38,287 nucleotides of DNA, taken from UHGV virus genome UHGV-1369766, one strand, 5' to 3'. Under the pieces are notes generated by a model. The model saw only the letters and a program-made list of their open reading frames with translations, searched no databases and had not been told where the DNA came from. Positions 2,292 to 38,154 of this stretch are shown here, piece after piece. Made by a program: the position numbers and the translations under genes. Source of the stretch: a virus. Position 1 is the stretch's first letter, and every line of letters starts with the position of its first letter.

Positions 2292-2969
2292 TCACTCTCC
2301 TTTGATGCGAATGCCAGCGGCGCGGATTGCAGCGATGATCTCAGAAACTTTGTATGCCATTACCGTTTGGTAATCCTCGTGAAAATCTGTTCGATGAAGC
2401 ATGCTGCTACGTTCCGGGAGCAGTATTTCCCGCTCCTCCAGTTCTGCTATGCGCTTCTCTGCGGCTTCCAGCTTCTCGCGCATATCGTCAACGTACTCGA
2501 CCAGAGAACCGCCAGCAGGAATTTCGCACTCCTCGACCAGTTGGAAGTAGATATCAGCTGCGGCCCGTGTGTTGCTATGCCTAGCGTCGCCCATCTCACC
2601 TTCACGAAGAGCATCGCGTTCGGCGGTAAGATTGGCTATTTTGCTGTCTTTGCCTTCCAGCTCAACGCGCAGCCTCCCTACCGTTAGCGCAATATCCTCG
2701 TTCTCCTGGTCGCGGCGTTTGATGTATTGCAGGTTTCTTTCCCGTTCATCCAGTAGTGCCAAAGCAATCTTGGGATTAAAGGCAGCAATAAATTCAGCGT
2801 TGTTTTTCAGAACGTGTTGCGCAATGGCCTGACTACTTAGCCGGACTTCATAACCACGTGCGCCACGGTGTGGTTTATATGAGTCCCAGTCACCCCACGT
2901 TGCTTTCTCTGCCTTTTCACGCAGTGCCTGATAGTCAATCTTGCTCACTGGTTGCCTCCTTTGCGCCAC
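2292..2969 (-). CDS. Ead/Ea22-like protein
   Basis: 225 aa ORF with coiled-coil central part and C-terminal ...[14 protein letters not shown] motif recalled from Ead/Ea22 family; apparent GTG start. Confidence 0.65.
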
Positions 2970-3130
2970 ATCGCATTCAGATATTTGTTTTGATTCACTG
3001 ATGGAAAAGAATTTCTTTTAAGCAATTCCTCTCTCGATGGCATTGGCTTTACGCGTTGGCGAATAATCATTTCTGCCGGAAGAATGCCGGGATTGTATGC
3101 AAGTCCTCTCATGGTAAATTCCTCAGTCAT
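2945..3130 (-). CDS. Hypothetical small protein (61 aa, ATG-start version of the 2945..3262 ORF)
   Basis: ATG at 3128-3130 lies 3 nt upstream of the stop of the preceding gene (coupled arrangement); the longer track ORF would need a TTG start. Confidence 0.3.
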
Positions 3131-3416
3131 TACTGATAGCGCCATAGCGTGAGCGGTAATTACGCTGGCGCGGGTCAATTTCAGGGAAGTGGGTATATGT
3201 GGCTTTGCGGAATGGTCGGATTGATGTCTGGTAAATTCGCTCGCGTTCTTCTTTCTCTGCAAGCCATATACAATGGCGAAATTCCTTTTCCTCTTTCGTT
3301 TCCTGCGGTAGCGACATTATCCGGTTGTAGTTTTTCCTGAATTTATCCAGCACCTCCGATACGGAATTGCCGGAACAGCGGCGCGCGTCATCCGCACCAT
3401 ACAGAGGCGCTGGCAT
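3123..3416 (-). CDS. Hypothetical protein
   Basis: 97 aa ORF; strong RBS (AGGAGAAAATC-ATG). Confidence 0.5.
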
Positions 3417-3429
3417 GATTTTCTCCTGA

Positions 3430-3897
3430 TTAAATTGCGTGAATAGCGTGACGAGGGAAGGGGAGAGTTACTGGTTCCTCGTCTGGATATATTGGCTTGT
3501 TGTGCTTGTGCCATTCAACATGACATGCTTTGCATAGCCACATCACTTCAAGAGGTTTACTGTAATCGCAGTGGTGAGCGTCTGGGTGGCATTTGCTGTT
3601 GCATTTCTGACACGTTGTTGGTCTACATAACTTACCAGATTTAATTGCTCGTTTGACTGACCATCTTGCTTGCTGTCTTTGGCGATGAGATTCCAGATAG
3701 TTCTCTCTTGCTTTGATTAATGCAACCTTGCCCTTTTCGCTTTTGTTATATTTTTTACAAGCATTATTATGTATTAGCTTTCCTATTCCTTTTTGATATT
3801 CAGTTACTCGTTTTTTAGTGCATTCCTTGCACACCTTATTTCTAGGATAAAAACCATTAGGTGGTTTATTCTCTCCACATTTTTTGCAAGTGATCAT
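3430..3897 (-). CDS. Zinc-ribbon / HNH-like endonuclease-type protein
   Basis: N-terminal CxxC...CxxC zinc ribbon, C-terminal ...DAHHCDYSKP...WLCKACHVEWH resembling an HNH motif; ATG with GGGAGAA RBS; the 5' half of the gene is visibly AT-rich relative to flanks. Confidence 0.6.
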   Translation of the reverse strand: MITCKKCGENKPPNGFYPRNKVCKECTKKRVTEYQKGIGKLIHNNACKKYNKSEKGKVALIKARENYLESHRQRQQARWSVKRAIKSGKLCRPTTCQKCNSKCHPDAHHCDYSKPLEVMWLCKACHVEWHKHNKPIYPDEEPVTLPFPRHAIHAI

Positions 3898-3912
3898 ATT
3901 TTCTCCCAATGA

Positions 3913-4374
3913 TTAAAATGGGATCTCATCGTCGAAGTTCATAGGAGGTTCGTTGTGTTGTGCTGGTGATGATTGCTGCTGTGGCTTCTGTGATTGCCTG
4001 CTGGCTGCTTGTTGTTTGCTGTCGCCAATGCCGCCAAGCATTTGCATCACGCCATTAATTCCGACATGAACCTCGGTTGTGTAACGGTCTTGTCCTGACT
4101 GGTCTTTCCACTTTCTGGTTCTCAGCATTCCCTCGAAATAAATCTGATCACCTTTTTTCACATACTGCCCCACGACCTCAGCCAGTTTCCCGGATACAGC
4201 AACACGATGCCATTCAGTCAATTCCTTTTGCTCGCCAGTATTTTTATCTCGCCATTGTTCTGACGTGGCTATTGTCAGGTTAGCGAACGCTGTTCCTGAT
4301 GGTGAGTATCGAACTTCCGGGTCTTGTCCTACCCGACCAAGGATAATCACCTTATTTACGCCTCTGCTTGCCAT
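3913..4374 (-). CDS. ssb: Single-stranded DNA-binding protein
   Basis: 153 aa; OB-fold-like N-terminal region, Gln/Pro-rich linker and acidic C-terminal tail ...NFDDEIPF typical of SSB. Confidence 0.9.
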
Positions 4375-5082
4375 TTATGCCGCCTGTTTTAGTTCGTTAA
4401 CTCTGATGTTCATTACCTGAACGCATTTAGCCTGCGCCTCCTCGTTGCCAGCCATTAATTGCCAGTCATGCTGATAACGCTCGATGAGTTTTTTCTTGTC
4501 AGTTTCTGTCGCTGCATAATCGCTGAAGTCTTTCAGGATTTGTTCGCAGTCAATCGATGGAGATTTCTGGTTGGTATTTTCTGGTGATGGTTTGTTATCT
4601 GATGCTGGTATTGCCCATCCCGGCAGCGATGGAGGGAGCCAGTAAAATCCTGTTCCATCCTTGAGTTTTGCCCTGTGCCACCCCTGCTTTTTATCGAGAG
4701 ATGTTTGTGCAAAACCTTCCTCAAGGTTATACAGATACCGACCGATTCCCCACTGAACGGCAGCACGCTTCATTGCACCGGAACGACCACCTTTGACGGC
4801 TTCTACCTGTGTGTTTTCAGCAGCATCCCATTTGGTTACCCATTCGGAATCAATCTTTATTGATATGCCGCATTCAACGCCGCCGTTGTTGGGAATATCG
4901 CGGTATTCATTGCGCCATCCTGCTTTGCCGCAAACATCGTCCAGGCGTTTCATGATTGCCCGGTTCGTGACATAAGCCAGCACCATAGCCCACACCTTGC
5001 CATCGCGTGTTTTACCGCTTTGCTGTATTCGCCATTCGATATCTTCAGGGCTGAATGGCTCATCGAATTTATTCAAATCCAT
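4375..5082 (-). CDS. Single-strand annealing recombinase (Rad52/Sak-like N-terminus, Erf-like C-terminus)
   Basis: 235 aa; N-terminal part with GIGRYLY-type motif; C-terminal ~60 aa (...YAATETDKKKLIERYQHDWQL...CVQVMNIRVNELKQAA) matches my recollection of the P22 Erf C-terminus; GAGGTGA RBS. Confidence 0.75.
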   Translation of the reverse strand: MDLNKFDEPFSPEDIEWRIQQSGKTRDGKVWAMVLAYVTNRAIMKRLDDVCGKAGWRNEYRDIPNNGGVECGISIKIDSEWVTKWDAAENTQVEAVKGGRSGAMKRAAVQWGIGRYLYNLEEGFAQTSLDKKQGWHRAKLKDGTGFYWLPPSLPGWAIPASDNKPSPENTNQKSPSIDCEQILKDFSDYAATETDKKKLIERYQHDWQLMAGNEEAQAKCVQVMNIRVNELKQAA

Positions 5083-5090
5083 AATTCACC

Positions 5091-5279
5091 TCAGAATGGT
5101 AATTCGGATGGGGAGGAAAGAAATTCGCGCTCATTCATGCGCTCTCTTTGTGCTTGCCATAAACAAAGTTGTTTCTTTGATTTATCTCCCGCTTTACGCC
5201 AGTAACGAGCCTCAGCAATGTGATATTCTCTTTTTAATCGACTTAACTCTGGAGTTTTCGCCAGCTCTACCGGAATCAT
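5091..5279 (-). CDS. Hypothetical small basic protein (possible recombination accessory factor)
   Basis: 62 aa; GGAGG RBS 5 nt before ATG; start overlaps the stop of the upstream Kil-like gene. Confidence 0.5.
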   Translation of the reverse strand: MIPVELAKTPELSRLKREYHIAEARYWRKAGDKSKKQLCLWQAQRERMNEREFLSSPSELPF

Positions 5280-6695: not shown

Positions 6696-7319
6696 CTATG
6701 CGGACTCGGAAGGAAGTCCAATCATCTTATTCAAATCTTCTACCCGTAAAGCAGGAAGTGCTGTACTTGCTTTGTCTGCTTCTTTTGGTAGCAATTCTTT
6801 GCTTTCAGGCCAAACTTCAATAAGTCGCTTAACTGTTGTGACTGAGTTCAAAGCAGCCCATACATTTGATTCGATATCCTTTTTCTTGGTTTCAAGTTTT
6901 TGTTGCAATGCGCAGATTTCATCAAACCTTTTTGTTATTTCGTGTTCTGCATCAAACATGCATTTATCTTTGGTTGGAGTAGGGAGCAATATATCTTCGC
7001 CGTTGCCGTCTTTCCCATATGAATGCCATCCAACCCTTCTGCCAGATACAGTCAGATAAATTGAAGTAGAACGAACATCGTATGAGTAAAATGAACATCC
7101 CATCTTTTCAAGTTCTTCACTTATAGCTACTAACCTGGATGATAACTGATCCACTTCCTCAGTTTTCTTTTTACCGCCAAACGCAATAACTCTGGCGTCA
7201 AGTGCAAGCTGGTTCTTTAACTTTGTTACTTCTTCAAGTTCAGTGAAAACCCCAGACTTAATTAAAGCGTTACGAGCGATTTTCTCTTTCATTCTCGTAG
7301 TTAAGCGGATTGATGACAT
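6696..7319 (-). CDS. Hypothetical protein immediately downstream of N
   Basis: 207 aa from the ATG at 7317-7319 (GAGGA RBS); 11 nt after the N stop and upstream of the tL1-like terminator; no family recognised. Confidence 0.6.
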   Translation of the reverse strand: MSSIRLTTRMKEKIARNALIKSGVFTELEEVTKLKNQLALDARVIAFGGKKKTEEVDQLSSRLVAISEELEKMGCSFYSYDVRSTSIYLTVSGRRVGWHSYGKDGNGEDILLPTPTKDKCMFDAEHEITKRFDEICALQQKLETKKKDIESNVWAALNSVTTVKRLIEVWPESKELLPKEADKASTALPALRVEDLNKMIGLPSESA

Positions 7320-7330
7320 ATTAATTCCTC

Positions 7331-7630
7331 TCAAATAAGTGGTTTGCTGCCTAATTTTATTTTCTGGCGACCAACACAAGTCACACCCATTTCACTGCGT
7401 GGCTTGCGGTAGTAAATACGGTTCTGTTTACGCTCGACTTCTTCTGCCTTCTTGCAGCGAAGGCTTCCGAGTGATGCTGCTTTGTCTGCTCTGACGCAAC
7501 CAGAGAGCTTTAGCGCAATTTTTCGCGCCAGTCGCTGCTCTTGCATTGCCTGTTCACGTTGAGCCTGTCTGCGTGCTCTGCGGCGATTTCTGGCGTTATC
7601 GTCAGCCAGATATGTAATGACTACTGTCAT
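7331..7630 (-). CDS. N: Antitermination protein N
   Basis: 99 aa; arginine-rich motif NARNRRRARRQAQ near the N-terminus; C-terminus ...YYRKPRSEMGVTCVGRQKIKLGSKPLI resembles my recollection of lambda N (...YSKPGERGITCSGRQKIKGKSIPLI); GGAGG RBS. Confidence 0.85.
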   Translation of the reverse strand: MTVVITYLADDNARNRRRARRQAQREQAMQEQRLARKIALKLSGCVRADKAASLGSLRCKKAEEVERKQNRIYYRKPRSEMGVTCVGRQKIKLGSKPLI

Positions 7631-10190: not shown

Positions 10191-11067
10191 GTTAGCTGAT
10201 TACAGGCATAACCCTGTACAACATCAGGAGGCATCCAGTATGGGGTATGTCTCTATACACCGCCAGTTTATGGACAGCAGGCTCTATAAGGACTCTCAGG
10301 CAGTACATCTTTGGCTTCACTTAATCCTCAAGGCTAATCACGAATCTACTGTCGTCAATACGGATATCGGGCCGATAACTGTTGATCGCGGTCAGATGAT
10401 AACTGGACGCCCGTCGCTGGTCAGAGAAACATTCATCCCCGACAACAAAGTTCGGAGCTTATTACGGACTTTTGAGTCGAAAGGGATGCTTAATATTTGC
10501 TCGATGGGGAAGAAATTTAGCCTGTTTACAATCGTTAAATATGACGATTTTCAGGCAAAAAATTGTCCAACGGTTGTCCAACGGTTGTCCAACGCAAACA
10601 CCAGTAATGGCGCGGCTCTCAGCGGAGATTGTCCAACGGTTGTCCAACGGTTGTCCATAAACAATAATATAAATAATATCTCTAATACTGACGTATTAGA
10701 GAGTGCCACAGCAGACAAAAAGTCTGACAAGAAAAAACCTTCCGTCAGCTGTCAGGATGTTGTCGATGCTTACCACGAAATCCTTCCTGAAGCGCCAAGA
10801 ATCCGCGCACTGAATGACAAGCGTAAAAACCAGATCCGAACGTTCTGGCGCAAAGCCGGAGTGATAACCCGCCAGCTTGACGGGCATGGGTTCACGATGC
10901 AGGACTGGAGAAATTATTTGAGCTACGTAGGCGAAAATTGCCGATGGATGTTCGAAGAACGCCCAAACCATCAACGCGGAACCGTCTGGCACAAAAAGGG
11001 ATTTGATTTCCTGCTTAACGACAATACCTACCTGAAAGTTCGTGAGGGTGAACACGATGACCGATAA
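10177..11067 (+). CDS. Replication initiator (lambda O functional analogue) with embedded origin iterons
   Basis: 296 aa ORF; the 11-bp iterons at 10563-10659 lie inside the coding sequence (encoding the repeated CPTVVQRLS peptide), as in lambdoid ori-in-O arrangements; stop overlaps the helicase start. An alternative start at ATG 10239 (AGGAGG RBS) is possible. Confidence 0.75.
   Translation: MGVVKLADYRHNPVQHQEASSMGYVSIHRQFMDSRLYKDSQAVHLWLHLILKANHESTVVNTDIGPITVDRGQMITGRPSLVRETFIPDNKVRSLLRTFESKGMLNICSMGKKFSLFTIVKYDDFQAKNCPTVVQRLSNANTSNGAALSGDCPTVVQRLSINNNINNISNTDVLESATADKKSDKKKPSVSCQDVVDAYHEILPEAPRIRALNDKRKNQIRTFWRKAGVITRQLDGHGFTMQDWRNYLSYVGENCRWMFEERPNHQRGTVWHKKGFDFLLNDNTYLKVREGEHDDR
10563..10700. 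repeat. Origin of replication: six 11-bp iterons (TTGTCCAACGG) in two triplets plus an AT-rich tract
   Basis: Direct repeats at 10563-10594 and 10629-10659, then aaacaataatataaataatatct; embedded in the initiator gene. Confidence 0.8.
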
Positions 11068-13514: not shown

Positions 13515-13935
13515 AATTCGATCTCCAGCACATCAGCAAAACGCTATTCACGCAGTACAGCAAATCCTTCCAGACCCAACCAAACCAATCGTAGTAACCA
13601 TTCAGGAACGCAACCGCAGCTTAGACCAAAACAGGAAGCTATGGGCCTGCTTAGGTGACGTTTCTCGTCAGGTTGAATGGCATGGTCGCTGGCTGGATGC
13701 AGAAAGCTGGAAGTGTGTGTTTACCGCAGCATTAAAGCAGCAGGATGTTGTTCCTAACCTTGCCGGGAATGGCTTTGTGGTAATAGGCCAGTCAACCAGC
13801 AGGATGCGTGTAAACGAATTTGCGGAGCTATTAGAGCTTATACAGGCATTCGGTACAGAGCGTGGCGTTAAGTGGTCAGACGAAGCGAGACTGGCTCTGG
13901 AGTGGAAAGCGAGATGGGGAGATCGGGCTGCATGA
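13495..13935 (+). CDS. ninB: NinB (Orf) recombination protein
   Basis: MKKLTFEIRSPAHQQNAIHAVQQILPDPTKPIVVTIQERNRSLDQNRKLWACLGDV... is near-identical to my recollection of lambda NinB. Confidence 0.9.
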   Translation: MKKLTFEIRSPAHQQNAIHAVQQILPDPTKPIVVTIQERNRSLDQNRKLWACLGDVSRQVEWHGRWLDAESWKCVFTAALKQQDVVPNLAGNGFVVIGQSTSRMRVNEFAELLELIQAFGTERGVKWSDEARLALEWKARWGDRAA

Positions 13936-14459
13936 CTATCAAATCAAATACGCCAGCACACGACAAGGACTGCTGGCAAACGCCGCTTTGGCTTTTTGAT
14001 GCACTGGATATTGAGTTTGGATTCTGGCTGGATTCGGCAGCGAGCGACAAAAATGCTCTGTGTGCTCACTGGCTAACTGAGGCCGACGACGCGCTCAATT
14101 CTGAGTGGGTAAGCCACGGTGCAATCTGGAATAACCCACCGTACAGCAATATCAGGCCGTGGGTGGAAAAAGCTGCTGAGCAGTGCATACAACAGCGACA
14201 GACGGTAGTGATGCTTGTGCCAGAGGATATGTCTGTCGGATGGTTCAGCAAGGCTCTGGAGAGTATTGACGAAGTTCGCATCATCACTGATGGACGGATT
14301 AATTTTATCGAACCATCGACGGGGCTGGAGAAGAAGGGAAACAGCAAAGGCTCCATGCTGCTGATTTGGCGACCGTTCATCAGTCCTCGACGGATGTTTA
14401 CTACTGTATCCAAAGCGGCATTGATGGCGATCGGGCAGGGCGTCAGGAGGGCGGCATGA
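13932..14459 (+). CDS. Phage Dam-type DNA N6-adenine methyltransferase (orphan)
   Basis: ATG overlaps the ninB stop (ATGA); contains WNNPPYS (the (D/N)PPY catalytic motif); no adjacent restriction endonuclease gene. Confidence 0.8.
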
Positions 14460-14638: not shown

Positions 14639-14805
14639 TTGACCCAAATCGAAGTTACGAACAAGAAAGCGTCGAGCGGGCTTTAACGTGCGCTAACTGC
14701 GGTCAGAAGCTGCATGTGCTGGAAGTTCACGTGTGCTCCGATTGCTGCGCAGAACTGATGAGCGATCCGAATAGCTCAATGTACGAGGAAGAAGACGATG
14801 AATGA
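14635..14805 (+). CDS. ninF: NinF (56 aa)
   Basis: GTG start overlapping the ninE stop; ...[29 protein letters not shown]...[12 protein letters not shown]... matches lambda NinF as recalled; below the ORF-track cutoff. Confidence 0.7.
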
Positions 14806-15523
14806 GTTAATAAATGGCAATGCCATCAAAATGACAAGCATTGAAATCGCTGAGTTGGTAGAAAGCCGCCATAGCAATGTAAAAGTATCCATAGATAGAT
14901 TGGTGAAACGTGGCGTTATCAAGCCTCCTGCATTGCAGCACACTAACATAATCAATGATTTAGGTGTTATTACCGGGAAGCGTGATTTCTACGTCTTCGA
15001 GGGCGAACAAGGAAAGCGAGACAGCATTATTGTCGTCGCCCAATTGTCGCCGGAATTCACCGCTCGTCTTGTTGACCGTTGGCGAGAGCTTGAAGAAACT
15101 GCGGTTAATATCCCCAAAACGCTACCAGAAGCGTTGCGCCTTGCTGCTGATCTTGCTGAGCAGAAAATGCAACTGGAAAACCAGCTCGCAATTGCCGCAC
15201 CTAAAGTTGAGTTTGCCGATCGCGTTGGCGAGGCCAGCGGAATTTTGATTGGAAACTTTGCAAAGGTTGTCGGTATTGGCCCAAACAAACTGTTTGCATG
15301 GATGCGCGATCACAAAATCCTTATTGCTTCAGGTTCCCGGCGCAATGTGCCAATGCAGGAATATATGGATCGCGGCTATTTCACAGTGAAAGAAACAGCG
15401 GTCAACACAAATCACGGAATACAGATATCGTTCACCACAAAAATCACCGGGCGTGGTCAACAGTGGCTGACCAGAAAGCTGCTCGATAACGGAATGCTGA
15501 AAGTAACAGGGGAGGCTGCTTAA
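14798..15523 (+). CDS. Phage antirepressor-like protein (N-terminal Ant/Rha-type domain, KilA-C-like C-terminus)
   Basis: 241 aa; the N-terminal SIEIAELV...NV... and C-terminal ...FAKVVGIGPNKLFAWMRDHKIL... patterns are typical of this antirepressor family. Confidence 0.7.
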   Translation: MNELINGNAIKMTSIEIAELVESRHSNVKVSIDRLVKRGVIKPPALQHTNIINDLGVITGKRDFYVFEGEQGKRDSIIVVAQLSPEFTARLVDRWRELEETAVNIPKTLPEALRLAADLAEQKMQLENQLAIAAPKVEFADRVGEASGILIGNFAKVVGIGPNKLFAWMRDHKILIASGSRRNVPMQEYMDRGYFTVKETAVNTNHGIQISFTTKITGRGQQWLTRKLLDNGMLKVTGEAA

Positions 15524-30900: not shown

Positions 30901-32289
30901 ATGGCTACTTGGCAAGGATCAAATGGCGGATTGTTGGCTGGTATCGGCGGCGTCAACTCAAACGCTCCGAGCGTAAATGACATCGGCAATACGCTTCAGC
31001 TTATCAGGCAGAACAATGATATTGAGCGTTCAGGCGCTAACAATGTTGGGCTGACTGCTTTGCAAGGCCTTTCAGGTATTGCGGGGGTGTTTCAGCAGGA
31101 AAAGCAGGCTCAGCGGCAGAAAGAATTTCAGCAGGCATACGCTAATGCTTATGCTTCTGGTGATCGCGGTGCTTTGCGTCAGTTGGCTACTCAATATCCA
31201 GACCAGATTGAATCCGTTCGTAAAGGCATGGGATTCATTGATGAAGACCAGCGTAATTCTATCGGTACATTAGCGGCTGGCGCACGTCTTGCGTCATCTT
31301 CTCCAGAAGCAATGCAATCATGGCTGCAAAACAACGCCAATGAGCTGGCGCGCGTCGGTGTTGACCCTAACAACGTTGCTCAGATGTATCAGCAGAATCC
31401 TTCAGGGTTTGGTGAGTTTGTTGATCACCTTGGGATGGCTGCTCTCGGTCCGATTGACTACTTCAATGTTCAGGACAAGATGGCAGGTCGTGAGATTGAC
31501 CGAGGCAGGCTGGCAGAGACAATCCGCAGCAATCAGGCTGGCGAGGCGCTAACAGCACGAGGCCAGAACATCACGATGCGCGGTCAGGACTTATCTGCTT
31601 CTACTGCGAGACGCGGGCAGGATTTGGCAATGCAGCGAGCGTCAACAAGAGGAACCGCTGGGAATGATGAGCGTACAGTTCAGTTATCAGATGGCAGAAC
31701 TGTAACGGTAGGCGGGAAACTTCACGGCGCTGGGGCTAATGCGTTCTACGAAGGCATCGACAACGAGGGGAATATGGTTCGCGTTCCTGCCAGTTCAATC
31801 GCAGCGCCTGCAACATCGTCTGCATCAGCACAAAACTATGCCATGAAGAAGGATATCGACGCGATCGCAAATGCAGATGCTTCTGCTCTCGATTTCATGA
31901 CAGGAATGACCGGCGGCGCAGGTAACCCGGCAATTGGTGCTGATGTTCGCAGCCGATTAACAGGAAAAGAGCAGCGCCAGTTATATAACTCAGCACAACG
32001 TATTCAGGGAAGAATGCAGAATCAGGGCGTGGCGGCAGCAAGGGACATGGGTGCCAGTGGTATTAACACCGTTGCAGAAGCGAAGATGTATTTTCAGGGG
32101 ATGCCGCAGGTTGACTATTCAAGCCCGGAGGCTATGCAGCAGTCGATTCGTGAGATTCAGGAATACACCAACAATTACAACCAACAATATAACGTTAATG
32201 TTGGTAAATCTCAGCGGCAGCAATCTCAACCTGCACAGGTATCACAGCCAGCAGCCAGCAGTAACTTTTCTTCACTATGGGGTGATTAA
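30901..32289 (+). CDS. Ejection protein (P22 gp20-like)
   Basis: 462 aa; order and size as P22 gp20. Confidence 0.75.
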
Positions 32290-34286
32290 TGGCTAAAGCA
32301 TGGAAAGATGTTATCGCCTCTCCACAGTATCAGGCGTTAGCACCAGAACAAAAAGCGCAGGCTCAGGAGCAATACTTCAATGAAGTCGTGGCCCCGCAAG
32401 CTGGAGAAAATGCAGAGCAGGCTAAGCAAGCTTTCTATGCTGCCTATCCATTGCCATCTGCGCAGCCAGTTGATACACAGCAACCAGTAGCACAGCAACA
32501 ACCACAGCAAAGTGGATTTATGTCTGATCTTGGTGAAGCAGTGAAAGAGACTGGTCGCGGACTGGTGCAGGCTGGCGTGAACGTGGCAAACATACCTGCA
32601 TCAGTTGCCGATGCTGTAACGAGCGCGGCGGCTTGGGCTGGCGGTAAACTCGGCATTGGCGATGGGACATATCAACCAGCGCCACGAGTAACAACGCAGG
32701 GATTAGAGCAGGACTTTGGCCTTCAGCAAGGCGCGCTGACTCCACAAACGACAGAGGGAAGGGTATTTGCTGAAGCATTGCCTTACCTCACTCCTGCTGG
32801 CGTTGAGAGAGCAGCAACACAGGCACCAACACTTGCTGGTCGAATTGCTCAGGGGGCAACACGACTTCTCGCAGAAAACGCAGTTGGATCACTTGCTGCA
32901 AATAGTGCGAAAGATGATGCGGAAGCACTCGCCACCGATTTAGGCGTTGGTGTGCTGGCTGGCGGTGCTATTAACGCTGCCGGACGTGGATTAGGTGCTG
33001 CTTATCGTGGCGTTCGTGGTGCTATTGCGCCAGAAGCGCAGCAGGCTATCAGATTTGCAGAGCGTGAAGGAGTTCCTCTGCACACCACAGACCTGTTACA
33101 GCCTACTTCCCGCGTCGGGAAAATGGCGCAGACTACAGCAGAAAATATCCCCCTGGCTGGCACAAGCGGAATGAGAGCAACGCAACAGGAAGCGAGAAGC
33201 CAGTTGGTGCAGAGATTTGCTGATAAATTCGGTGAGTATGATCCAGCTGTTGTTATTGACAGCCTTAAAGCGAAAACATCAGGAATTCGTCGTGCTGCAG
33301 GGAACCGTCTTGAGCAGGTTCAGAATGCAATGGCAGGAGTCAACATTCAACCTGCACGAGCAATTCAGCAGATTGATACTGAGATATCTAACCTGCAGAA
33401 GCTTGGTAAGGTGGCTGATAACGAGACAATTTCAAAACTTCAATCCTATCGTGATGAGCTTGTTCGCAATGCTGGTCCTGATGGTCCGGTAAATCTGGAT
33501 TTGAAGCAATTAAGCGATCTGCGCAGCCAGTTCAGAATGGACGTGAAGGGTGAGCGACCAGTGTTACCAAACCGTTCCGATGCTGCCATTCAGCGCGTTT
33601 ACAAGGCGATGACCGACGATATCAATGGTGCCATTGGTCAGAATCTTGGCAACGATACTCTCCGTAAATATCAGCAGGCCAATGCCGTCTACGCTGACGA
33701 AGCGGCGAAACTAAAGAATACCCGGCTGAAGAATGTTCTCATGAAAGGCGATCTTACTCCGGAAGTTGTCAACAGCATGCTATTCAGCAAGAACAAATCG
33801 GAAATTAAGACGCTGTACAACTCAGTTGGCCGTGTTGGCAGGGCGCAAATGCGCAATGGCATCATTGGAAAGGCGATGGAGAAATCAGGTGGATCCCCTG
33901 ACCAGTTCCTTCGGCAGCTTAATATCCTGCAAAACCAGACTGGCATCACATTTAAGGGGCAGGACGCTGCTTATCTGAAAGGATTAAAAAACTATCTGCA
34001 ATCCACGCAGCAGGCTACAAAAGCGGCAGTAACAACACCAACAGGGCAGCAAACCATCCCGTTCATTATCGGATATGGGACGGCAATGAACCCGGCGACA
34101 ACTGGCGCAGCAGTAAGCTACGGCCTTCTTGCTCGCGCCTATGAGAGTGAGCCATTCAGAAATGCAATGCTACGAATGGCAAACACACCACACGGATCAA
34201 CAGCGTTTGAGAAAGCCATGCAGCAGGCGCAAAAGGCAATTAACGCTATGACGCAGGGGGCTAAGTCTGAAGCGTTGTCAGAATAG
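32289..34286 (+). CDS. Ejection protein (P22 gp16-like)
   Basis: 665 aa; order and approximate size as P22 gp16; last gene of the plus-strand late block before a strand switch. Confidence 0.75.
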   Translation: MAKAWKDVIASPQYQALAPEQKAQAQEQYFNEVVAPQAGENAEQAKQAFYAAYPLPSAQPVDTQQPVAQQQPQQSGFMSDLGEAVKETGRGLVQAGVNVANIPASVADAVTSAAAWAGGKLGIGDGTYQPAPRVTTQGLEQDFGLQQGALTPQTTEGRVFAEALPYLTPAGVERAATQAPTLAGRIAQGATRLLAENAVGSLAANSAKDDAEALATDLGVGVLAGGAINAAGRGLGAAYRGVRGAIAPEAQQAIRFAEREGVPLHTTDLLQPTSRVGKMAQTTAENIPLAGTSGMRATQQEARSQLVQRFADKFGEYDPAVVIDSLKAKTSGIRRAAGNRLEQVQNAMAGVNIQPARAIQQIDTEISNLQKLGKVADNETISKLQSYRDELVRNAGPDGPVNLDLKQLSDLRSQFRMDVKGERPVLPNRSDAAIQRVYKAMTDDINGAIGQNLGNDTLRKYQQANAVYADEAAKLKNTRLKNVLMKGDLTPEVVNSMLFSKNKSEIKTLYNSVGRVGRAQMRNGIIGKAMEKSGGSPDQFLRQLNILQNQTGITFKGQDAAYLKGLKNYLQSTQQATKAAVTTPTGQQTIPFIIGYGTAMNPATTGAAVSYGLLARAYESEPFRNAMLRMANTPHGSTAFEKAMQQAQKAINAMTQGAKSEALSE

Positions 34287-34376: not shown

Positions 34377-34862
34377 TTATCTGATGTTACTGCTACTGTT
34401 GCATGTGACTGTATTTCCAAACCCTGAATTGCAGTTTGTGTAAGTGTCAACTCGTGTTGGATAGGGTTGAGTTATAACAGGCTGTCTCGCTTTTTGCTCG
34501 ATCGCTTGCATTGTGTTTACAGCCTGATAATTCAATAAAGCCTGCTGGAATGCTTGGCTTTGTGCTATTTGTTGGGCTTGTTCTTGGCTTTGTAATTGAA
34601 CATAAAGATTCTGAAGCTCAAGTCTTGCCTGTGCGTCACTTATCTTGCCTTCATCGACACCTTGCCCGAGCATCTTTGCAGCAAGGACATACAACTTAGG
34701 TGTTGGTGCTGATGCCATGCGTGAGTCGTTCTTCACACTGGCATCAAGGCAATTAGCCATATCGCTAAGCTTTTGATAGCGTTGTTCGCAACTTGCTTGA
34801 TAGTCACTTACTTTTGCGCATCCAACCAGCAGAAGCGGGATAATTAACAGTGATTTTTTCAT
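34377..34862 (-). CDS. Predicted lipoprotein (moron; candidate superinfection-exclusion or lysogenic-conversion factor)
   Basis: 161 aa from the ATG at 34860-34862 (AAGGAGAG RBS); signal peptide with lipobox MKKSLLIIPLLLVGC; Gln-rich mature region; minus strand, AT-rich, in the sieA/immI-equivalent slot between ejection genes and tailspike. Confidence 0.65.
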   Translation of the reverse strand: MKKSLLIIPLLLVGCAKVSDYQASCEQRYQKLSDMANCLDASVKNDSRMASAPTPKLYVLAAKMLGQGVDEGKISDAQARLELQNLYVQLQSQEQAQQIAQSQAFQQALLNYQAVNTMQAIEQKARQPVITQPYPTRVDTYTNCNSGFGNTVTCNSSSNIR

Positions 34863-34932
34863 ATGGTTAACTCTCCTTAGTTTTTCACAGGATATCATGA
34901 AGGCAATGCCATTTTAGCCGGAAACTAGATTT

Positions 34933-35199
34933 CTATGTTTCCTTCTTATTATTGCTATACATGGTCTTAAGCGTATCAAAGACAATTTTCTTAACCATCT
35001 CAGATTGTTGTTCTGCCATACGCTCTGCGTCGTCAATGTAAACAGATGCAGAGCTTTGTTTAGCCAATGATTCTTCAATCGCTGCAATTATCTCTGAGTT
35101 CAGCGACCTGTTATTCATCTTCGCACGCTGTTTAATTTTCGCGTGTAGTTCGTGCGTAAGCCTCAAGTGGAACTGCGCCTCATCGTATTTGCTGTACAT
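34933..35199 (-). CDS. mnt: Mnt-like ribbon-helix-helix repressor
   Basis: 88 aa from the ATG at 35197-35199; RHH core (QFHLRLTHELHAKIKQRAKMNNRSLNSEIIAAIEESL) and C-terminus ...DDAERMAEQQSEMVKKIVFDTLKTMY parallel P22 Mnt (...NDAERLADEQSELVKKMVFDTLKDLY) as recalled. Confidence 0.8.
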   Translation of the reverse strand: MYSKYDEAQFHLRLTHELHAKIKQRAKMNNRSLNSEIIAAIEESLAKQSSASVYIDDAERMAEQQSEMVKKIVFDTLKTMYSNNKKET

Positions 35200-35260
35200 C
35201 CTTGATGCCCTCACCAGTGGGTGGAATGGCATCGTAAAACCTACTGGATAAATCAACAAT

Positions 35261-35277
35261 CATACCATTTCGGTATG
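35261..35277. promoter_or_regulatory. 17-bp perfect palindrome (CATACC-ATTTC-GGTATG), candidate Mnt operator
   Basis: Located in the 135-bp divergent region between the mnt start and the tailspike start. Confidence 0.45.
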
Positions 35278-35334
35278 TAACTATAGCTTACCGCAGCTCT
35301 GCTGTGGGGACTAATTGCGCCCGGAGCACATCAA

Positions 35335-37383
35335 ATGACTAATACCAATTACTTGGTCTCTATGCCGTCCACTCCTTTTTCGGCGCCACGAGCATTTAAA
35401 TCAGTGGCGAATGGGAAAATCTATATCGGAAACCCTGACACTGACCCGGTAAATCCTGCCAACCAAATCCCGGTATATATCGTTAATGAGGATGGCTCCG
35501 AGGTTCAGGTTTCACAGCCAATCATCATTAACGCCGGCGGCTTCCCGGTCTATAACGGCCAGATTATGAAGTTCATCACCAAACAGAACTTCAGTATGGC
35601 GGTTTATGATGCGTATGGAGCACAGCAGTTTTATTGGCCTGATTTATCAGAAATTGACCCATCTGCAATCATAGCCATGCTTTCGACTAGCGAAGGATCT
35701 GGAATGATTGGATGGGCGCGAAATTATTCTTGCGAGCTTGCAGCTACTGTTTCCGTATTTCTATCTGCACAAAAGATTAATTTATGGGAATATCGACATC
35801 TGGCGCTCGATACTATTGTTGATGGGGCTGAAGTCGTTGACTGGACACCCGCCATGATTCAGGCGCTGGTTGATGGTGCAAAATATAAGCGGCAGGTTTA
35901 TGCACCAGGCGGGAGATATTACTTTCAGAAAATGCCTGAGTTTGTAAATTTGGATTCCTCCGGTTCAACAACAAACATGTCCATGTATTCGCTGGTTGGT
36001 GACGGACACGATAAAACTATTTTCTGGACAGACAGTCTGGTTGGCAAGGAAATGCATTTCAGTACATGCCGCTTTTATTTTGATAAATTTAGTGTGCAGC
36101 GCGTGCTACAGGGGGATGATGCCGCATACCGGGATAGCAAGATACCCCTCATGCAGCTTGGACGCAGTACTGACATCTCTGCGGCCAGGCTCGGTTATAT
36201 GGGGGATGTACGCTTCAACGGCAGTCCGTGGGGTCTGAACATAGAGCACTGCTGGGACTCAATTTTCCAGGATGTCATTGTCCATAATTTCCAGACATCA
36301 GGCATTCGCATAGGCATGCATGATGTAGACAACAGTAATAACCTGTTGTTTATCAGAACACATATTGAAAGCTGTCAGTATAAAGGTGAAAACCTGTGTC
36401 GCGCCTTTGCTGATATGTCATATAAGACTGGTTCGCGGGTAAACCATAACATCACCCTCATTCAGCCGCATATTGAGCCTGTTAATCTGCGTTGCCATAT
36501 TTTTTATTCATCCTATGGAAAAAATATCAAAGTCATCAATCCGGCATTCAACCGAAACAATGGCTCCGTGGATAAAGGGTTATACCTCGACCCTTCTCTC
36601 GCTGCGCCAGCGGTGTACTCGTCGGATGGTGTCAACATCCACATTGATGGTGGTCAGATTCAGCATATCGGGCCACGCAGTGACACCGTTGCTCCCCTGT
36701 TTAAGTTTGTTGGTACGCATAAAGGTTGGCGGTGTGACAGCTACATTGATACCGGGAAGGAGACTTCACGCACTGATTTACTGTCTTCAGTTGACGTTTC
36801 AAGAAGCAATAATGGGTTACGTGAAATTTCATTTAAGGGAGCGACAGTCAACTCATTTACCTCGATGAGCTCTGTAGGCGACAGACTGAGAGTGGCTCCT
36901 TTAAATGACCTGCAAAAAGTATTCGATCTGGTTGCAGAAACCTTCATCCCACCGGGGGAAACGAACACTATCGCACGGATTATTGCGATGTATTCCAACA
37001 CGCAGGATTTATCCACTCCCCAGCAAAAGGCGTGGGATATCACCAGTGCCGGACATGCATCATTTAAGGCGTTGCGCGGTCAGCAGTACATCATTCAGGC
37101 CGGGGCAGTGGCGACGGTTAACGTAGGTGTCGGGGCACTGGAGCGGCGCGGAACTTATCTGATTAGCGGGGCGGAAAACAATAACCAACTTTTTGCGATG
37201 TTCTTTAATGTTCCAGGACAGGCTCCCAGTGAAATTAAAACTGGCTCCAGCGTTAATTTATCAAGAGTGCAACCTGATGCATCTGTCACCGGCAAGCTGT
37301 GTGTGTATCAGAATAATCAATATATCAATCTTGAAAACAGAACCGCATCCGCGGTGACTGTTAACGTCAATTTTTTTGCGTGA
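35335..37383 (+). CDS. Tailspike protein: P22-like N-terminal head-binding domain fused to a divergent receptor-binding domain
   Basis: First ~110 aa (…[47 protein letters not shown]…MAVYDA…) parallel the P22 gp9 N-terminus as recalled; the remaining ~570 aa do not. Confidence 0.9.
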
Positions 37384-37390
37384 GGTGATT

Positions 37391-37630
37391 ATGTCCTTAT
37401 CTTTATACCGCTCAACAAGGACCGTACAGGCTTTAAAGATAGCATCTGTCGCTATAGCTGAAGATTACTCGGCTGTTCTGAAAGATGCTTCAGGTAATGA
37501 GCTTATCGTAAGCGCCGATTATGTTGTGCGGGAAAAACCAAAGGCGGGTGGGTATTATATGAAAAATAATGATGGCTTTGAGGCATTTCTCGATAAAGAA
37601 GTTTTTGAAAGGGATTTCGCTCTCGTCTGA
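37391..37630 (+). CDS. Hypothetical protein
   Basis: 79 aa from the ATG at 37391 (GAGGTGA RBS) directly after the tailspike stop. Confidence 0.45.
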   Translation: MSLSLYRSTRTVQALKIASVAIAEDYSAVLKDASGNELIVSADYVVREKPKAGGYYMKNNDGFEAFLDKEVFERDFALV

Positions 37631-37722
37631 ATACTTGTTTTTCAGATGGCTATTCCTGTCGATTCAAGCTGGTATAGCCATCACTTCAATTCACCTGATT
37701 GTCATCAGGCTAGGTGGATATT

Positions 37723-38115
37723 ATGGATTATATTGGTTTCGATGTAATTTTAATCTGGTATGCTGGGGTAGGTTTCTTTTTATGGACTGTCGCCCAGATT
37801 ATCAGGGCGGGTGAAACAAATGGAGTATTCAATAATATTGCATGCCTGTTGCTGTTTGTTATCGCATGGCCGAAGATAATGTGGACACTTTGCTGCCTTA
37901 TTGTAAAGAGACTTTTTGATGTTGATCATCAATTATTATCAGAAAGCAGAGGTGTCAAGCGAGGCGGCGGGACGGAGCTTGCCACGCTGAGAGGAAGGTC
38001 GCTGATTACCGAAGATGGTGAAGCGATCGAGGGTGAAGCCTTGGACGATGTTAGCGTCATCGGGGTCGTGACATTTACTATCTGCGATGTCCGCGGGGAC
38101 AATACCGTTGTTTAG
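37723..38115 (+). CDS. Hypothetical protein with hydrophobic N-terminal half (extent uncertain)
   Basis: ATG at 37723 with AGGTGG RBS; AT-rich hydrophobic first half, then a compositionally different GC-richer tail that may not be coding in this frame. Confidence 0.3.
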   Translation: MDYIGFDVILIWYAGVGFFLWTVAQIIRAGETNGVFNNIACLLLFVIAWPKIMWTLCCLIVKRLFDVDHQLLSESRGVKRGGGTELATLRGRSLITEDGEAIEGEALDDVSVIGVVTFTICDVRGDNTVV

Positions 38116-38154
38116 TTGCAGTAAATTGGTGGAAGATTTCGCGTGGCAGGGTTC

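What the first reader, a model, noticed from the sequence alone, without database searches (positions are those of the whole stretch)
34377..35277. Lipoprotein moron plus orphan Mnt repressor and palindrome replacing the P22 sieA/immI region
Between the last ejection gene and the tailspike, where P22 carries sieA and the mnt-arc-ant immunity region, this element has a minus-strand AT-rich lipoprotein and an Mnt-like repressor but no arc or ant. A perfect 17-bp palindrome lies in the mnt-tailspike intergenic region. The lipoprotein is a candidate exclusion or conversion factor, and Mnt may have been repurposed to regulate the moron or tailspike expression.
Basis: partly seen in the sequence, partly recalled or inferred. 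Interest (0 to 1): 0.65.

Follow-up and report, generated by a model that had tools for sequence, protein, structure and literature searches.

The report
Orphan Mnt repressor and prophage lipoprotein
This is a common, already catalogued variant of the variable "ant moron" that P22-like phages carry in front of their tailspike gene: an Mnt repressor with its own operator but no antirepressor to control, next to an uncharacterised exported lipoprotein. It is ordinary in kind, although what either part does is still unknown.

Summary
The window is a complete HK620/P22-like phage genome. Between the last ejection gene (32289-34286) and the tailspike (35335-37383) lie two minus-strand genes. One is a 161-aa lipoprotein (34377-34862, lipobox LVGC). 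The other is an 88-aa Mnt homologue (34933-35199, Pfam Arc + Repressor_Mnt). There is no arc and no ant.

The "perfect 17-bp palindrome" is really two 6-bp arms (CATACC/GGTATG) around an asymmetric 5-nt centre. By itself it is no more than chance would give. It does, however, sit exactly where P22 has its Mnt operator, 1 bp from the -35 of Pmnt. Operator sequence and the Mnt DNA-reading strand change together across at least four specificity classes. It is therefore very probably the cognate operator.

The strong rightward promoter Pant of P22 is absent here, so control of the tailspike from a divergent promoter is not supported.

The same arrangement occurs in at least 101 of 5,426 complete E. 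coli genomes, including strain B7A, a prophage shown in the 2008 "ant moron" survey. Orphan mnt is also known from phages L and ST64T.

The added points are that the orphan Mnt is under strong purifying selection, and that the lipoprotein belongs to a wider, unnamed family carried on mobile elements. This is a new member of a known kind, of low to moderate interest.

The parts
32289..34286 (+). gene-16-type DNA ejection protein (left boundary of the ant moron)
   Evidence: 665-aa ORF. The homologous genes are annotated 'injection protein, similar to P22 gp13/16' or lytic transglycosylase in Gally and VSe13.
34377..34862 (-). lipoprotein gene, 161 aa, of unknown function (phrog_6067); signal peptide plus lipobox LVG-C15, Ala at +2
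   Evidence: ORF. Start fixed by 27 homologues. phrog_6067 at 1.6e-110; no Pfam, NCBIfam or PADLOC family. Four conserved Cys. Always convergent with and just after the gene-16 homologue.
34871..34878 (-). ribosome-binding site of the lipoprotein gene (AAGGAGAG)
   Evidence: Read from the sequence. Conserved in VSe13 and Gally.
34889..34897 (-). candidate extended -10 promoter of the lipoprotein gene (TGaTATCCT); inferred
   Evidence: Read from the sequence. The 45 bp upstream of the lipoprotein ATG, including TGgTATCCT, are conserved in VSe13, where a different gene follows. Not detected by the two-hexamer scan.
34933..35199 (-). mnt homologue, 88 aa, 'class C' recognition strand YSKYDEAQFHLRL
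   Evidence: Pfam Arc + Repressor_Mnt. PDB 1MNT 3e-18. Start codon conserved across relatives. N-terminal domain pN 0.035 against pS 0.44.
35208..35212 (-). ribosome-binding site of mnt (GAGGG, 8 nt before the ATG)
   Evidence: Read from the sequence.
35231..35236 (-). -10 hexamer of Pmnt (TACGAT); inferred by homology
   Evidence: Aligns with P22 Pmnt TATCAT, which is annotated in BK000583. The same hexamers and spacing were scored in JEP4.
35254..35259 (-). -35 hexamer of Pmnt (TTGTTG), 17-bp spacer to the -10
   Evidence: Aligns with P22 TTGAGA. The 'ATTG' is invariant in all nine aligned loci.
35261..35277 (.). putative class-C Mnt operator: CATACC-ATTTC-GGTATG (6-bp arms, 5-nt centre)
   Evidence: Same position and same 1-bp distance from the -35 as the annotated P22 mnt operator. 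Core ATACC-NAAAN-GGTA is kept in 73 of 73 class-C loci. It is the only exact site in the window. Homology with E. coli prophages ends at its outer edge.
35291..35307 (+). hairpin in the tailspike leader (CCGCAGC-TCT-GCTGTGG); part of the tailspike module, not of the mnt module
   Evidence: Homologous to CCGTAGC-CAT-GCTGCGG upstream of P22 gene 9 and ST64T gene 9. Not reproduced in the minimum-free-energy fold of 35255-35334, which pairs these bases differently. Function unknown.
35335..37383 (+). tailspike (right boundary of the ant moron)
   Evidence: Pfam Head_binding 4.9e-47 at residues 4-110.

Best explanation
The interval is an 'ant moron' of a P22-like phage, built from two independent mosaic modules. 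Both are transcribed leftward, against the late operon, and are presumably expressed from the prophage.

Module 1 is mnt with its promoter Pmnt and its operator. The Mnt homologue has a changed DNA-reading strand and recognises the 17-bp element at 35261-35277. That element abuts the -35 of Pmnt exactly as in P22. The arc-ant half of the P22 immI region and the strong promoter Pant are gone. In cis, therefore, Mnt can only act on its own leftward transcription unit, and it sits bound about 57 bp upstream of the tailspike start, in the path of late transcription.

Module 2 is a lipoprotein gene at the position that sieA occupies in P22. The protein is exported, lipidated at Cys15 and, with Ala at +2, sorted to the inner face of the outer membrane. 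It is read from its own weak extended -10 promoter and/or by read-through from Pmnt. Its most likely job is a prophage-encoded envelope function such as superinfection exclusion.

Shown: gene identities, positional homology of the operator, loss of Pant, purifying selection on Mnt, and independent assortment of the two modules.
Inferred: DNA binding, promoter activity, co-transcription, protein localisation and the exclusion role.
For: Mnt identity.

Operator:
- P22 has annotated Omnt, Pmnt and Pant. The nine-locus alignment puts the window's repeat on Omnt and keeps ATTG plus a 17-bp spacer plus TAnnAT as Pmnt.
- Strand and operator co-vary: RDDPHFNFRM with AGGTCCAC-C-GTGGACCT; GRDDPQFNLRL with AAGACCAC-G-GTGGTCTT; YSKYDEAQFHLRL with CATACC-GAAAT-GGTA; SREEPQINIRI with TGGTATAAC-C-GTTATACCA.

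Loss of Pant: loci with ant score 9-11/12 for a rightward promoter. The orphan loci have none with A2/T6 at that position.

The gene is functional, not decaying: 75 of 78 class-C copies are intact, and the N-terminal domain has pN 0.035 against pS 0.44.

No other target in cis: there is a single operator in the window. The only ANT-domain gene, the roi-like gene at 14798-15523, has no site.

The modules are independent. In L218 mnt is deleted, and operator plus Pmnt directly precede the lipoprotein gene. In Klebsiella mnt and the lipoprotein gene are 10 bp apart.

Lipoprotein:
- Lipobox and Cys conservation.
- Fixed position next to gene 16 in Morganella, Yersinia and Klebsiella prophages.
- Distant relatives lie on integrative elements beside restriction-modification, AIPR, TIR and Thoeris-type genes.

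Literature: PMC2629481 and PMC8022706.
Against: - No experiment or expression data were available. Pmnt here matches consensus at only 7 of 12 positions.
- The operator is poorly symmetric in most relatives.
- A repressor whose only target is its own promoter does not explain the strong selection, least of all in the 30 loci where mnt is the only gene of the moron. So part of its function is missing from this account.
- The defence-island context of distant relatives rests on three loci only.
Confidence: 0.6

Rival explanations
1. Trans-acting immunity. The orphan Mnt is kept because, in a lysogen, it shuts off the antirepressor gene of an incoming related phage that carries the same operator class. 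This protects the resident prophage from Ant-mediated induction. This reading is compatible with the best explanation and would supply the missing selective advantage.
For: - Strong purifying selection on a repressor with no cis target.
- For the neighbouring class B operator, 67 loci are orphans and 7 carry arc plus ant next to the same operator, so such targets exist in nature.
- From established P22 biology (my own knowledge, not tested here): prophage Mnt represses ant of superinfecting phage, and Ant inactivates repressors of heteroimmune phages.
Against: - For class C, the window's class, 0 of 73 IMG/VR loci and none of the GenBank phages have ant next to the operator. No target phage is known.
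- L045 carries a complete immI of another class beside the class-C mnt, so class C is not simply what is left of that phage's own immI.
Confidence: 0.2
2. Tailspike control. Mnt represses a promoter in the mnt-tailspike spacer, or blocks late transcription, and so sets tailspike dosage.
For: - In 70 of 73 class-C loci and 67 of 74 class-B loci the operator faces the tailspike gene, usually 50-60 bp from its start.
- Villafane et al. suggest that the P22 ant moron, and possibly Mnt and Arc, affect read-through of late transcription into the tailspike gene (PMC2629481).
Against: - No rightward sigma-70 promoter with the essential -10 bases exists at or near the operator.
- P22-like phages with no mnt at all (Sf6, HK620, and the Morganella and Yersinia prophages) have the same tailspike leader or layout, so Mnt is dispensable for tailspike expression.
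- HNH-like or IS insertions between operator and tailspike are tolerated in 7-8 loci of each class.
Confidence: 0.08
3. Decaying remnant. mnt and its operator are leftovers of an immI region that lost arc-ant, and they have no present function.
For: HK620 carries annotated remnants of mnt and ant at this place. VSe13 has a truncated ant-like fragment. The phage L paper lists this possibility.
Against: - pN/pS is about 0.08 in the DNA-binding domain across 35 distinct sequences, and 75 of 78 copies are intact.
- Operator and promoter are conserved at dS above 1 between subgroups.
- Recombination joints respect the outer edge of the operator.
Confidence: 0.08
4. The inverted repeat is an intrinsic terminator for leftward transcription, not a protein-binding site.
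For: The consensus scan calls a minus-strand hairpin CATACCGAAATGGTATG followed by ATTGTTGATT. A 61-nt minus-strand RNA spanning the element (35240-35300) folds at -16.8 kcal/mol, z = -2.4.
Against: - The T-rich tail is the -35 region of Pmnt.
- In most relatives the stem shrinks to 4 bp (TACC/GGTA) and the tail to ATTGAG.
- There is no leftward transcription unit upstream, only antisense tailspike.
- The homologous P22 element is a mapped operator.
Confidence: 0.03

Closest known systems
Phage P22 immI region: Mnt repressor, Omnt, Pmnt/Pant (GenBank BK000583; PDB 1MNT, 1QEY)
   Same: Same protein family and two-domain architecture. Same 17-bp operator length, the same 1-bp gap to the -35 of Pmnt and the same 17-bp promoter spacer. 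Same position between gene 16 and the tailspike gene.
   Different: 47% identity. The base-reading strand differs at 2 of the 3 compared contact positions (H6 to Q, N8 to H; R10 retained), and the operator sequence is different and only partly symmetric. There is no Pant, arc, sar or ant, so Mnt's known job is absent.
Orphan mnt 'ant morons' of Salmonella phages L, ST64T, ST104 and ST160 (Villafane et al. 2008, PMC2629481; Zaworski et al. 2020, PMC8022706)
   Same: mnt plus operator plus Pmnt joined directly to the tailspike leader, with no arc or ant. The operator lies about 60 bp from the tailspike start. The function is acknowledged as unknown.
   Different: A different specificity class (B: AAGACCAC-G-GTGGTCTT, strand GRDDPQFNLRL), 57% identity or less. 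The companion gene is a different small ORF, not the lipoprotein.
Prophage of E. coli B7A and at least 100 other complete E. coli genomes; partial matches in phages VSe13, Gally, Sf101 and IME10
   Same: B7A has the identical order gene 16 > lipoprotein < mnt < tailspike >, at 95.8% DNA identity. B7A is one of the ant morons drawn in Villafane et al. 2008, Fig. 3.
   Different: The tailspike and its leader differ, with a mosaic joint at about 35278. The window's operator has an extra symmetric base pair on each side (GGTATG instead of GGTACT).
P22 SieA superinfection-exclusion protein (Leavitt et al. 2024, PMC10883804)
   Same: Same genomic slot, convergent with and immediately after gene 16, transcribed against the late operon. 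It is an envelope protein expressed from a prophage.
   Different: No sequence similarity. SieA is an inner-membrane protein; the window's protein is a lipobox lipoprotein predicted for the outer membrane. No functional data exist.
Cor (phi80/N15) and Llp (T5) exclusion lipoproteins
   Same: Small phage-encoded outer-membrane lipoproteins. This is the best-known way a phage lipoprotein blocks superinfection.
   Different: No sequence or profile match. Cor and Llp are 60-80 aa and target FhuA, which P22-like phages are not known to use. The resemblance is one of concept only.

Membership tests
Mnt repressor (Arc/MetJ ribbon-helix-helix superfamily) | N-terminal ribbon-helix-helix DNA-binding domain | tested here: met
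   Pfam PF03869 Arc 6.7e-13, residues 8-50. Aligns with 1MNT over residues 7-79, E 3e-18.
Mnt repressor (Arc/MetJ ribbon-helix-helix superfamily) | C-terminal coiled-coil tetramerisation domain | tested here: met
   Pfam PF11423 Repressor_Mnt 8e-14, residues 58-82. PDB 1QEY 4e-7. Other class-C copies carry two alternative C-terminal variants.
Mnt repressor (Arc/MetJ ribbon-helix-helix superfamily) | 17-bp dyad operator directly upstream of the -35 of its own promoter | tested here: met
   Positional homology with the annotated P22 operator and promoter. The symmetry is imperfect: 6+6 bp here, 4+4 bp in most relatives.
Mnt repressor (Arc/MetJ ribbon-helix-helix superfamily) | Specific binding of the protein to that operator | not testable with these tools
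   Only indirect support: strand and operator co-vary across classes.
P22-type immI immunity region (mnt-arc-ant with Pant and sar) | Antirepressor gene ant downstream of the operator | tested here: not met
   tblastn with four Ant proteins finds only an E of about 0.1 match inside the roi-like gene at 15209-15307. The operator is followed by the tailspike gene.
P22-type immI immunity region (mnt-arc-ant with Pant and sar) | arc gene and a strong divergent promoter Pant overlapping the operator region | tested here: not met
   No Arc match. P22 Pant scores 11/12, whereas the window has no rightward candidate with A2/T6 at that position.
'ant moron' of P22-like phages (Villafane et al. 2008) | Variable, non-morphogenetic gene set between the gene 16 and gene 9 homologues, inside the late operon | tested here: met
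   Gene order, flanking genes, definition. The same arrangement is found in B7A.
Bacterial lipoprotein (Lgt/LspA substrate) | Signal peptide ending in a lipobox [LVI][ASTVI][GAS]C, with a basic N-region | tested here: met
   MKKSLLIIPLLLVG-C15. Cys is invariant in 28 close homologues and at least 90% conserved in 41 distant ones. No SignalP/LipoP run was possible.
Bacterial lipoprotein (Lgt/LspA substrate) | Actual lipidation and membrane localisation | not testable with these tools
   Outer-membrane sorting is inferred from Ala at +2 (the established Lol avoidance rule; my own knowledge).
SieA-type exclusion protein | Sequence homology to one of the three SieA types | tested here: not met
   No tblastn match of P22 SieA in the window. 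PHROG assignment is phrog_6067, unknown function.
Cor/Llp-type exclusion lipoprotein | Sequence homology to Cor or Llp | tested here: not met
   No PHROG, PADLOC, Pfam or NCBIfam match to such families.

The most novel reading that the evidence does not exclude
The class-C mnt-operator cassette is not a leftover of immI. It is a self-standing module that has taken on an ant-independent role, for example pre-emptive repression of antirepressors of invading phages, or tuning of tailspike dosage. This would explain why it is always fused to the tailspike gene and is under strong selection even when it is the only gene of the moron. In addition, the neighbouring two-disulfide lipoprotein would be the founding member of a new periplasmic superinfection-exclusion or defence family carried by phages and integrative elements.
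Probability: 0.25. Interest if true: 0.55.

Novelty: new member of a known kind. Interest (0 to 1): 0.27.

Why it matters
If the inferences hold, this locus gives a clean natural series of Mnt specificity classes: recognition strand paired with operator. That series could be used to extend the beta-sheet DNA-recognition code worked out on P22 Mnt and Arc.

It also sharpens an acknowledged loose end, namely why phages such as L and ST64T, and many E. coli prophages, keep mnt without ant. The selection data argue that the gene is used, which makes the trans-immunity idea directly testable.

The lipoprotein is a frequent prophage cargo gene: its main 90%-identity cluster holds 871 member sequences, and it occurs in several Enterobacterales genera. 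It has no assigned function and occupies the sieA slot, so it is a reasonable candidate for phage-exclusion screens.

None of this changes how P22-like genomes are understood. The arrangement itself is common and has been drawn before.

Tried and rejected
1. Palindrome significance by symmetry alone: rejected. Shuffles give at least one such repeat in 20% of cases, and 19 inverted repeats were found in 551 bp.
2. A second operator elsewhere in the window: none credible. There is one exact site. Near-matches with 2 mismatches lose an arm, and a 1-mismatch site at 12372 and a TACC-N4-GGTA at 2361 look like chance.
3. An ant gene under Mnt control elsewhere: only a roi-like ANT/Rha gene at 14798-15523, in the nin region and without a site.
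4. A class-C operator in front of arc-ant in other phages: none in 73 loci. The other 46 pattern hits are unrelated chance matches.
5. Genes inserted between operator and tailspike as possible Mnt targets: they read towards mnt and look like an HNH-type endonuclease (judged by eye; a 70-aa fragment had no Pfam hit) or an IS. They are not rightward cargo.
6. A class-C site at the Rha/KilA promoter of JEP4-type morons: none.
7. Lipoprotein function by sequence: no Pfam, NCBIfam or PADLOC match. The GspK hit of 18.9 bits against a cut-off of 130 is noise.
9. Context of distant lipoprotein relatives in IMG/VR: the alignment was too diverse to search with, and two single-protein scans found nothing.
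10. The genome-contig scan with Mnt returned only 6 loci, two of them spurious Akkermansia hits.
11. Terminators flanking the lipoprotein gene: none. The folds are not better than shuffles.
12. One literature search was wasted on non-specific 'mnt' hits, and PMC30133 is not held.
Full report
**What the window is.** The 38,287-bp window is a complete genome of a P22-like (Lederbergvirus) phage or prophage of the HK620/IME10/CUS-3 group. It has an integrase at 54-1313 (an unverified reading from position; no family search was run on it). It also has a CI-type repressor, CII, NinB, Dam, a Q antiterminator, a virion gene block and a tailspike with the P22 head-binding domain.

The finding lies between the last ejection gene (32289-34286) and the tailspike gene (35335-37383). 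This is the interval that Villafane et al. (2008) named the "ant moron". They showed it to be the most fluid part of the late operon, with ten types in sixteen genomes (PMC2629481).

**Check of the observation.** Both genes are real.

- *Lipoprotein.* The listed ORF runs 34377-34898, but every homologue starts at the internal MKK. The CDS is therefore 34377-34862, 161 aa, preceded by AAGGAGAG. Its N-terminus MKKSLLIIPLLLVG-C15 satisfies the lipobox rule.
- *Mnt homologue.* It spans 34933-35199, 88 aa, starting MYSKYD behind a GAGGG ribosome-binding site. The in-frame extension to 35259 is absent from several relatives. It hits both Pfam Arc and Pfam Repressor_Mnt and aligns with P22 Mnt (PDB 1MNT) at 3e-18.
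- *Absent genes.* No arc, ant or sieA is detectable anywhere in the window.
- *Base composition.* GC content is only mildly low, 38-45% against 48-55% in the neighbours.
- *The palindrome.* It is not perfect. 35261-35277 reads CATACC-ATTTC-GGTATG, with 6-bp arms and an asymmetric centre. One region in five of this size and composition has such a repeat by chance.

**What the repeat is.** P22 (BK000583) carries annotated coordinates for the mnt operator, Pmnt, Pant and the arc operator. I laid the mnt upstream regions of P22, ST160, Gally, MS2 LVA, Sf101, VSe13, JEP4, a Serratia prophage and the window side by side. In every one a 17-bp element is followed, after one base, by an invariant TTG that begins the -35 of Pmnt. 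A 17-bp spacer and a TAnnAT -10 follow. In the window these are TTGTTG at 35259-35254 and TACGAT at 35236-35231. The window's repeat occupies exactly the operator position.

The operator sequence changes together with the N-terminal beta-strand that reads the bases in this family:

| Phage(s) | Recognition strand | Operator |
|---|---|---|
| P22, UPF_BP1 | RDDPHFNFRM | AGGTCCAC-C-GTGGACCT |
| ST64T, ST160, Gally | GRDDPQFNLRL | (A/G)AGACCAC-N-GTGGTCTT |
| Window, Sf101, IME10, VSe13, JEP4, Serratia | YSKYDEAQFHLRL | CATACC-(G/T)AAA(T/C)-GGTA(C/T)(G/T) |
| A Klebsiella myovirus | SREEPQINIRI | TGGTATAAC-C-GTTATACCA |

The Arg of the strand and the CC...GG of the operator are common to the first three rows. 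I call the window's type class C.

An IMG/VR scan for the class-C core found 73 loci with class-C mnt beside it. All keep ATACC-NAAAN-GGTA, but the commonest form, CATACCGAAATGGTACT, is symmetric only in TACC/GGTA. The element is therefore conserved as a sequence more than as a palindrome, and the window's copy happens to be the most symmetric. Homology between the window and E. coli prophages stops at 35277-35281, the outer edge of the element. The operator is thus the last functional piece of the mnt module. I conclude, by homology and co-variation and without binding data, that 35261-35277 is the cognate Mnt operator.

**What Mnt can regulate here.**

- In P22 the operator covers the start of Pant, which scores 11/12 against consensus. 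Loci of other classes that have ant also have a good rightward promoter (9/12). The orphan loci, including the window, have no rightward candidate with the essential A2 and T6 of the -10 at that position, and the general scan finds none.
- The window has one exact operator site. Its only antirepressor-like gene is a roi-type ANT/Rha protein at 14798-15523 in the nin region, which has no site.
- Among 73 class-C loci the operator faces the tailspike gene directly in 63. In 7 it does so across an inserted leftward ORF that looks HNH-like by eye. It never faces arc-ant.
- On the other side of mnt lie gene 16 directly (30 loci), the lipoprotein (16), or a Rha/KilA-type module with its own repressor (13). 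One locus has a complete immI of a different class there.
- For class B, 67 loci are orphans and 7 have arc-ant.

**Is the orphan gene decaying?** No. Of 78 class-C copies, 75 are intact. Across 35 distinct sequences of the first 40 codons, pN is 0.035 against pS 0.44. The C-terminal tetramerisation region exists in three exchangeable variants. [quoted passage not shown]

What it is selected for is not shown. Autoregulation of the leftward unit is the minimum that follows from the anatomy. Repression of ant genes on incoming phages of the same operator class is an attractive addition, supported for class B. For class C, however, no target phage is known.

**The lipoprotein.**

- *Family.* It belongs to phrog_6067, function unknown, and has no Pfam, NCBIfam or PADLOC family. 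Eighty-nine homologues, all "hypothetical", occur in Escherichia, Citrobacter, Serratia, Klebsiella, Cronobacter, Yersinia, Pectobacterium, Morganella, Pantoea and Tatumella.
- *Conserved features.* These are the lipobox Cys, a Cys25/Cys38 pair in a helical N-terminal domain, a Gln-rich helix, and a C-terminal C-x9-C hairpin.
- *Genomic position.* In Morganella, Yersinia and Klebsiella prophages the gene is always convergent with, and 10-20 bp from, the gene-16 homologue. This is the slot of sieA in P22. It occurs with no mnt (Morganella, Yersinia) or with a class-B-like mnt 10 bp upstream (Klebsiella).
- *Expression signals.* In the window, 70 bp separate it from mnt, with no terminator. The 45 bp upstream of its ATG, including an extended -10-like TGaTATCCT, are conserved in VSe13, where a different gene lies beyond. 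In contig L218 mnt is deleted, and operator plus Pmnt sit directly before the lipoprotein gene. Both its own promoter and read-through from Pmnt are therefore plausible.
- *Wider family.* A profile search found 236 cluster representatives with the same Cys pattern. The three distant members whose contexts could be read lie on integrative elements next to restriction-modification, AIPR, TIR and Thoeris-type genes. This is weak, anecdotal support for a defence or exclusion role.
- *Localisation and role.* Localisation to the inner face of the outer membrane follows from Ala at +2 (established sorting rule). The exclusion role itself is inference from position and context only.

**Comparison and novelty.** The closest systems are:

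- the P22 immI Mnt/Omnt/Pmnt unit, which has the same family and geometry but a different specificity, and here lacks Pant-arc-ant;
- the orphan-mnt morons of L, ST64T and ST160, which have the same layout but belong to class B;
- the prophage of E. coli B7A, which has the identical gene order at 96% identity and was one of the morons drawn in 2008.

At least 101 of 5,426 complete E. coli genomes carry 80% or more of the interval. The finding is therefore a further member of a known, catalogued kind. The additions from this analysis are the class-specific operator assignment, the loss of Pant in orphans, the selection evidence, the independence of the two modules, and the wider lipoprotein family.

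**Verdict.** It is a new member of a known kind, with interest about 0.27. The most novel reading not excluded is an ant-independent function for class-C Mnt together with a new exclusion lipoprotein family. I give that reading roughly 0.25 probability.

Noticed in passing
window 14798-15523 (+): Roi-like protein with a Pfam ANT (KilAC) domain (1e-32) and a weak Rha N-terminal domain, in the nin region. It is the only antirepressor-like gene in the window, and no Mnt-operator-like site lies near it.
   Followed up: partly
window 35291-35307 (+): Hairpin CCGCAGC-TCT-GCTGTGG in the tailspike leader. It is homologous to CCGTAGC-CAT-GCTGCGG in front of P22 and ST64T gene 9. In P22 the motif AAAATTCACCGTAGCCA(C/T)GCT occurs twice (after the ant terminator and before gene 9), like a recombination boundary sequence. 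Function unknown.
   Followed up: partly
window 37376-38115 (+): Two small ORFs lie between the tailspike and the end of the window, where HK620 has an O-antigen modification gene. One is 84 aa (phrog_11049, unknown). The other is 133 aa, with a hydrophobic N-terminal half and a C-terminal match to phrog_3469 'UmuD-like'. GC skew rises to +0.23 to +0.32 across 37550-38150.
   Followed up: no
L218 (IMG/VR 3300045988_051161), about 7060-7400 in the mnt-oriented reverse complement used (operator at 7141-7160 in both orientations): A close relative of the window (tailspike N-terminus 95%, lipoprotein 98%) has a class-B operator and Pmnt, but mnt is replaced by a 10-codon remnant. The repressor-less promoter therefore directly precedes the lipoprotein gene.
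   Followed up: partly
L045 (IMG/VR 2648501336_000006), operator at about 3005 in the mnt-oriented reverse complement used (10339-10358, minus strand, in stored locus coordinates): This locus has two mnt genes of different classes. A class-C mnt faces the tailspike, and behind it lies a complete 611R6-type module (Ant 97% identical) with its own mnt-like gene. Class C is thus an addition to immI rather than a residue of it.
   Followed up: partly
L041, L064, L088 (class C); L151, L165, L184, L203 (class B): Insertions of 0.3-0.8 kb lie between the Mnt operator and the tailspike start. In L041, L064 and L088 there is a 166-179-aa ORF reading towards mnt; the L041 form looks HNH-endonuclease-like by eye (a 70-aa fragment had no Pfam hit). 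L203 has an IS1-like transposase fragment.
   Followed up: partly
Sf101 NC_027398 gp14, ST160, epsilon34, SPN9CC and others; phrog_795: RefSeq and PHROG label Mnt homologues 'partition protein ATPase'. This is evidently a propagated mis-annotation of an 82-97-aa ribbon-helix-helix repressor.
   Followed up: no
L002 (Gally) 3711-4130 (+), and 21 class-B IMG/VR loci: A second, unrelated lipoprotein gene (phrog_6823, lipobox LSGC, weak PEGA-domain hit) sits on the late-operon strand between the first lipoprotein and mnt. The moron can therefore carry two envelope lipoproteins.
   Followed up: no
L224, L225, L226: Distant relatives (26-34% identity) of the lipoprotein lie on integrative elements. 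Two sit beside a serine recombinase plus a primase-type gene (L224, L225). Two sit next to defence-type genes: N6_N4 methylase with a BamHI-like nuclease, AIPR and TIR in L224; ThsB_TIR, SLATT and QueC in L226.
   Followed up: partly
window, minus strand: 2361, 3786, 4837, 6925, 26193, 35745: There are seven matches to ATACCNAAANGGTA with up to 2 mismatches, against 2.0 expected (0 of 100 shuffles reach 7), and all are on the minus strand. Apart from the operator none keeps both arms. 2361-2374 reads TACC-AAAC-GGTA, with a 4-nt spacer. Unexplained, possibly a composition effect.
   Followed up: no
window 6696-7379 (-) and 13872-14459 (+): An Nmad5 (nucleotide-modification-associated) domain protein lies in the early-left region, and a phage Dam methyltransferase in the nin region.
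   Followed up: no
L007 (JEP4) 2770-5234 and 13 class-C IMG/VR loci: An alternative moron content lies behind class-C mnt: a C2-like repressor gene divergent from a hyp-Rha-KilA-hyp operon that reads towards mnt and the tailspike. It looks like a functional analogue of immI built from different parts.
   Followed up: partly
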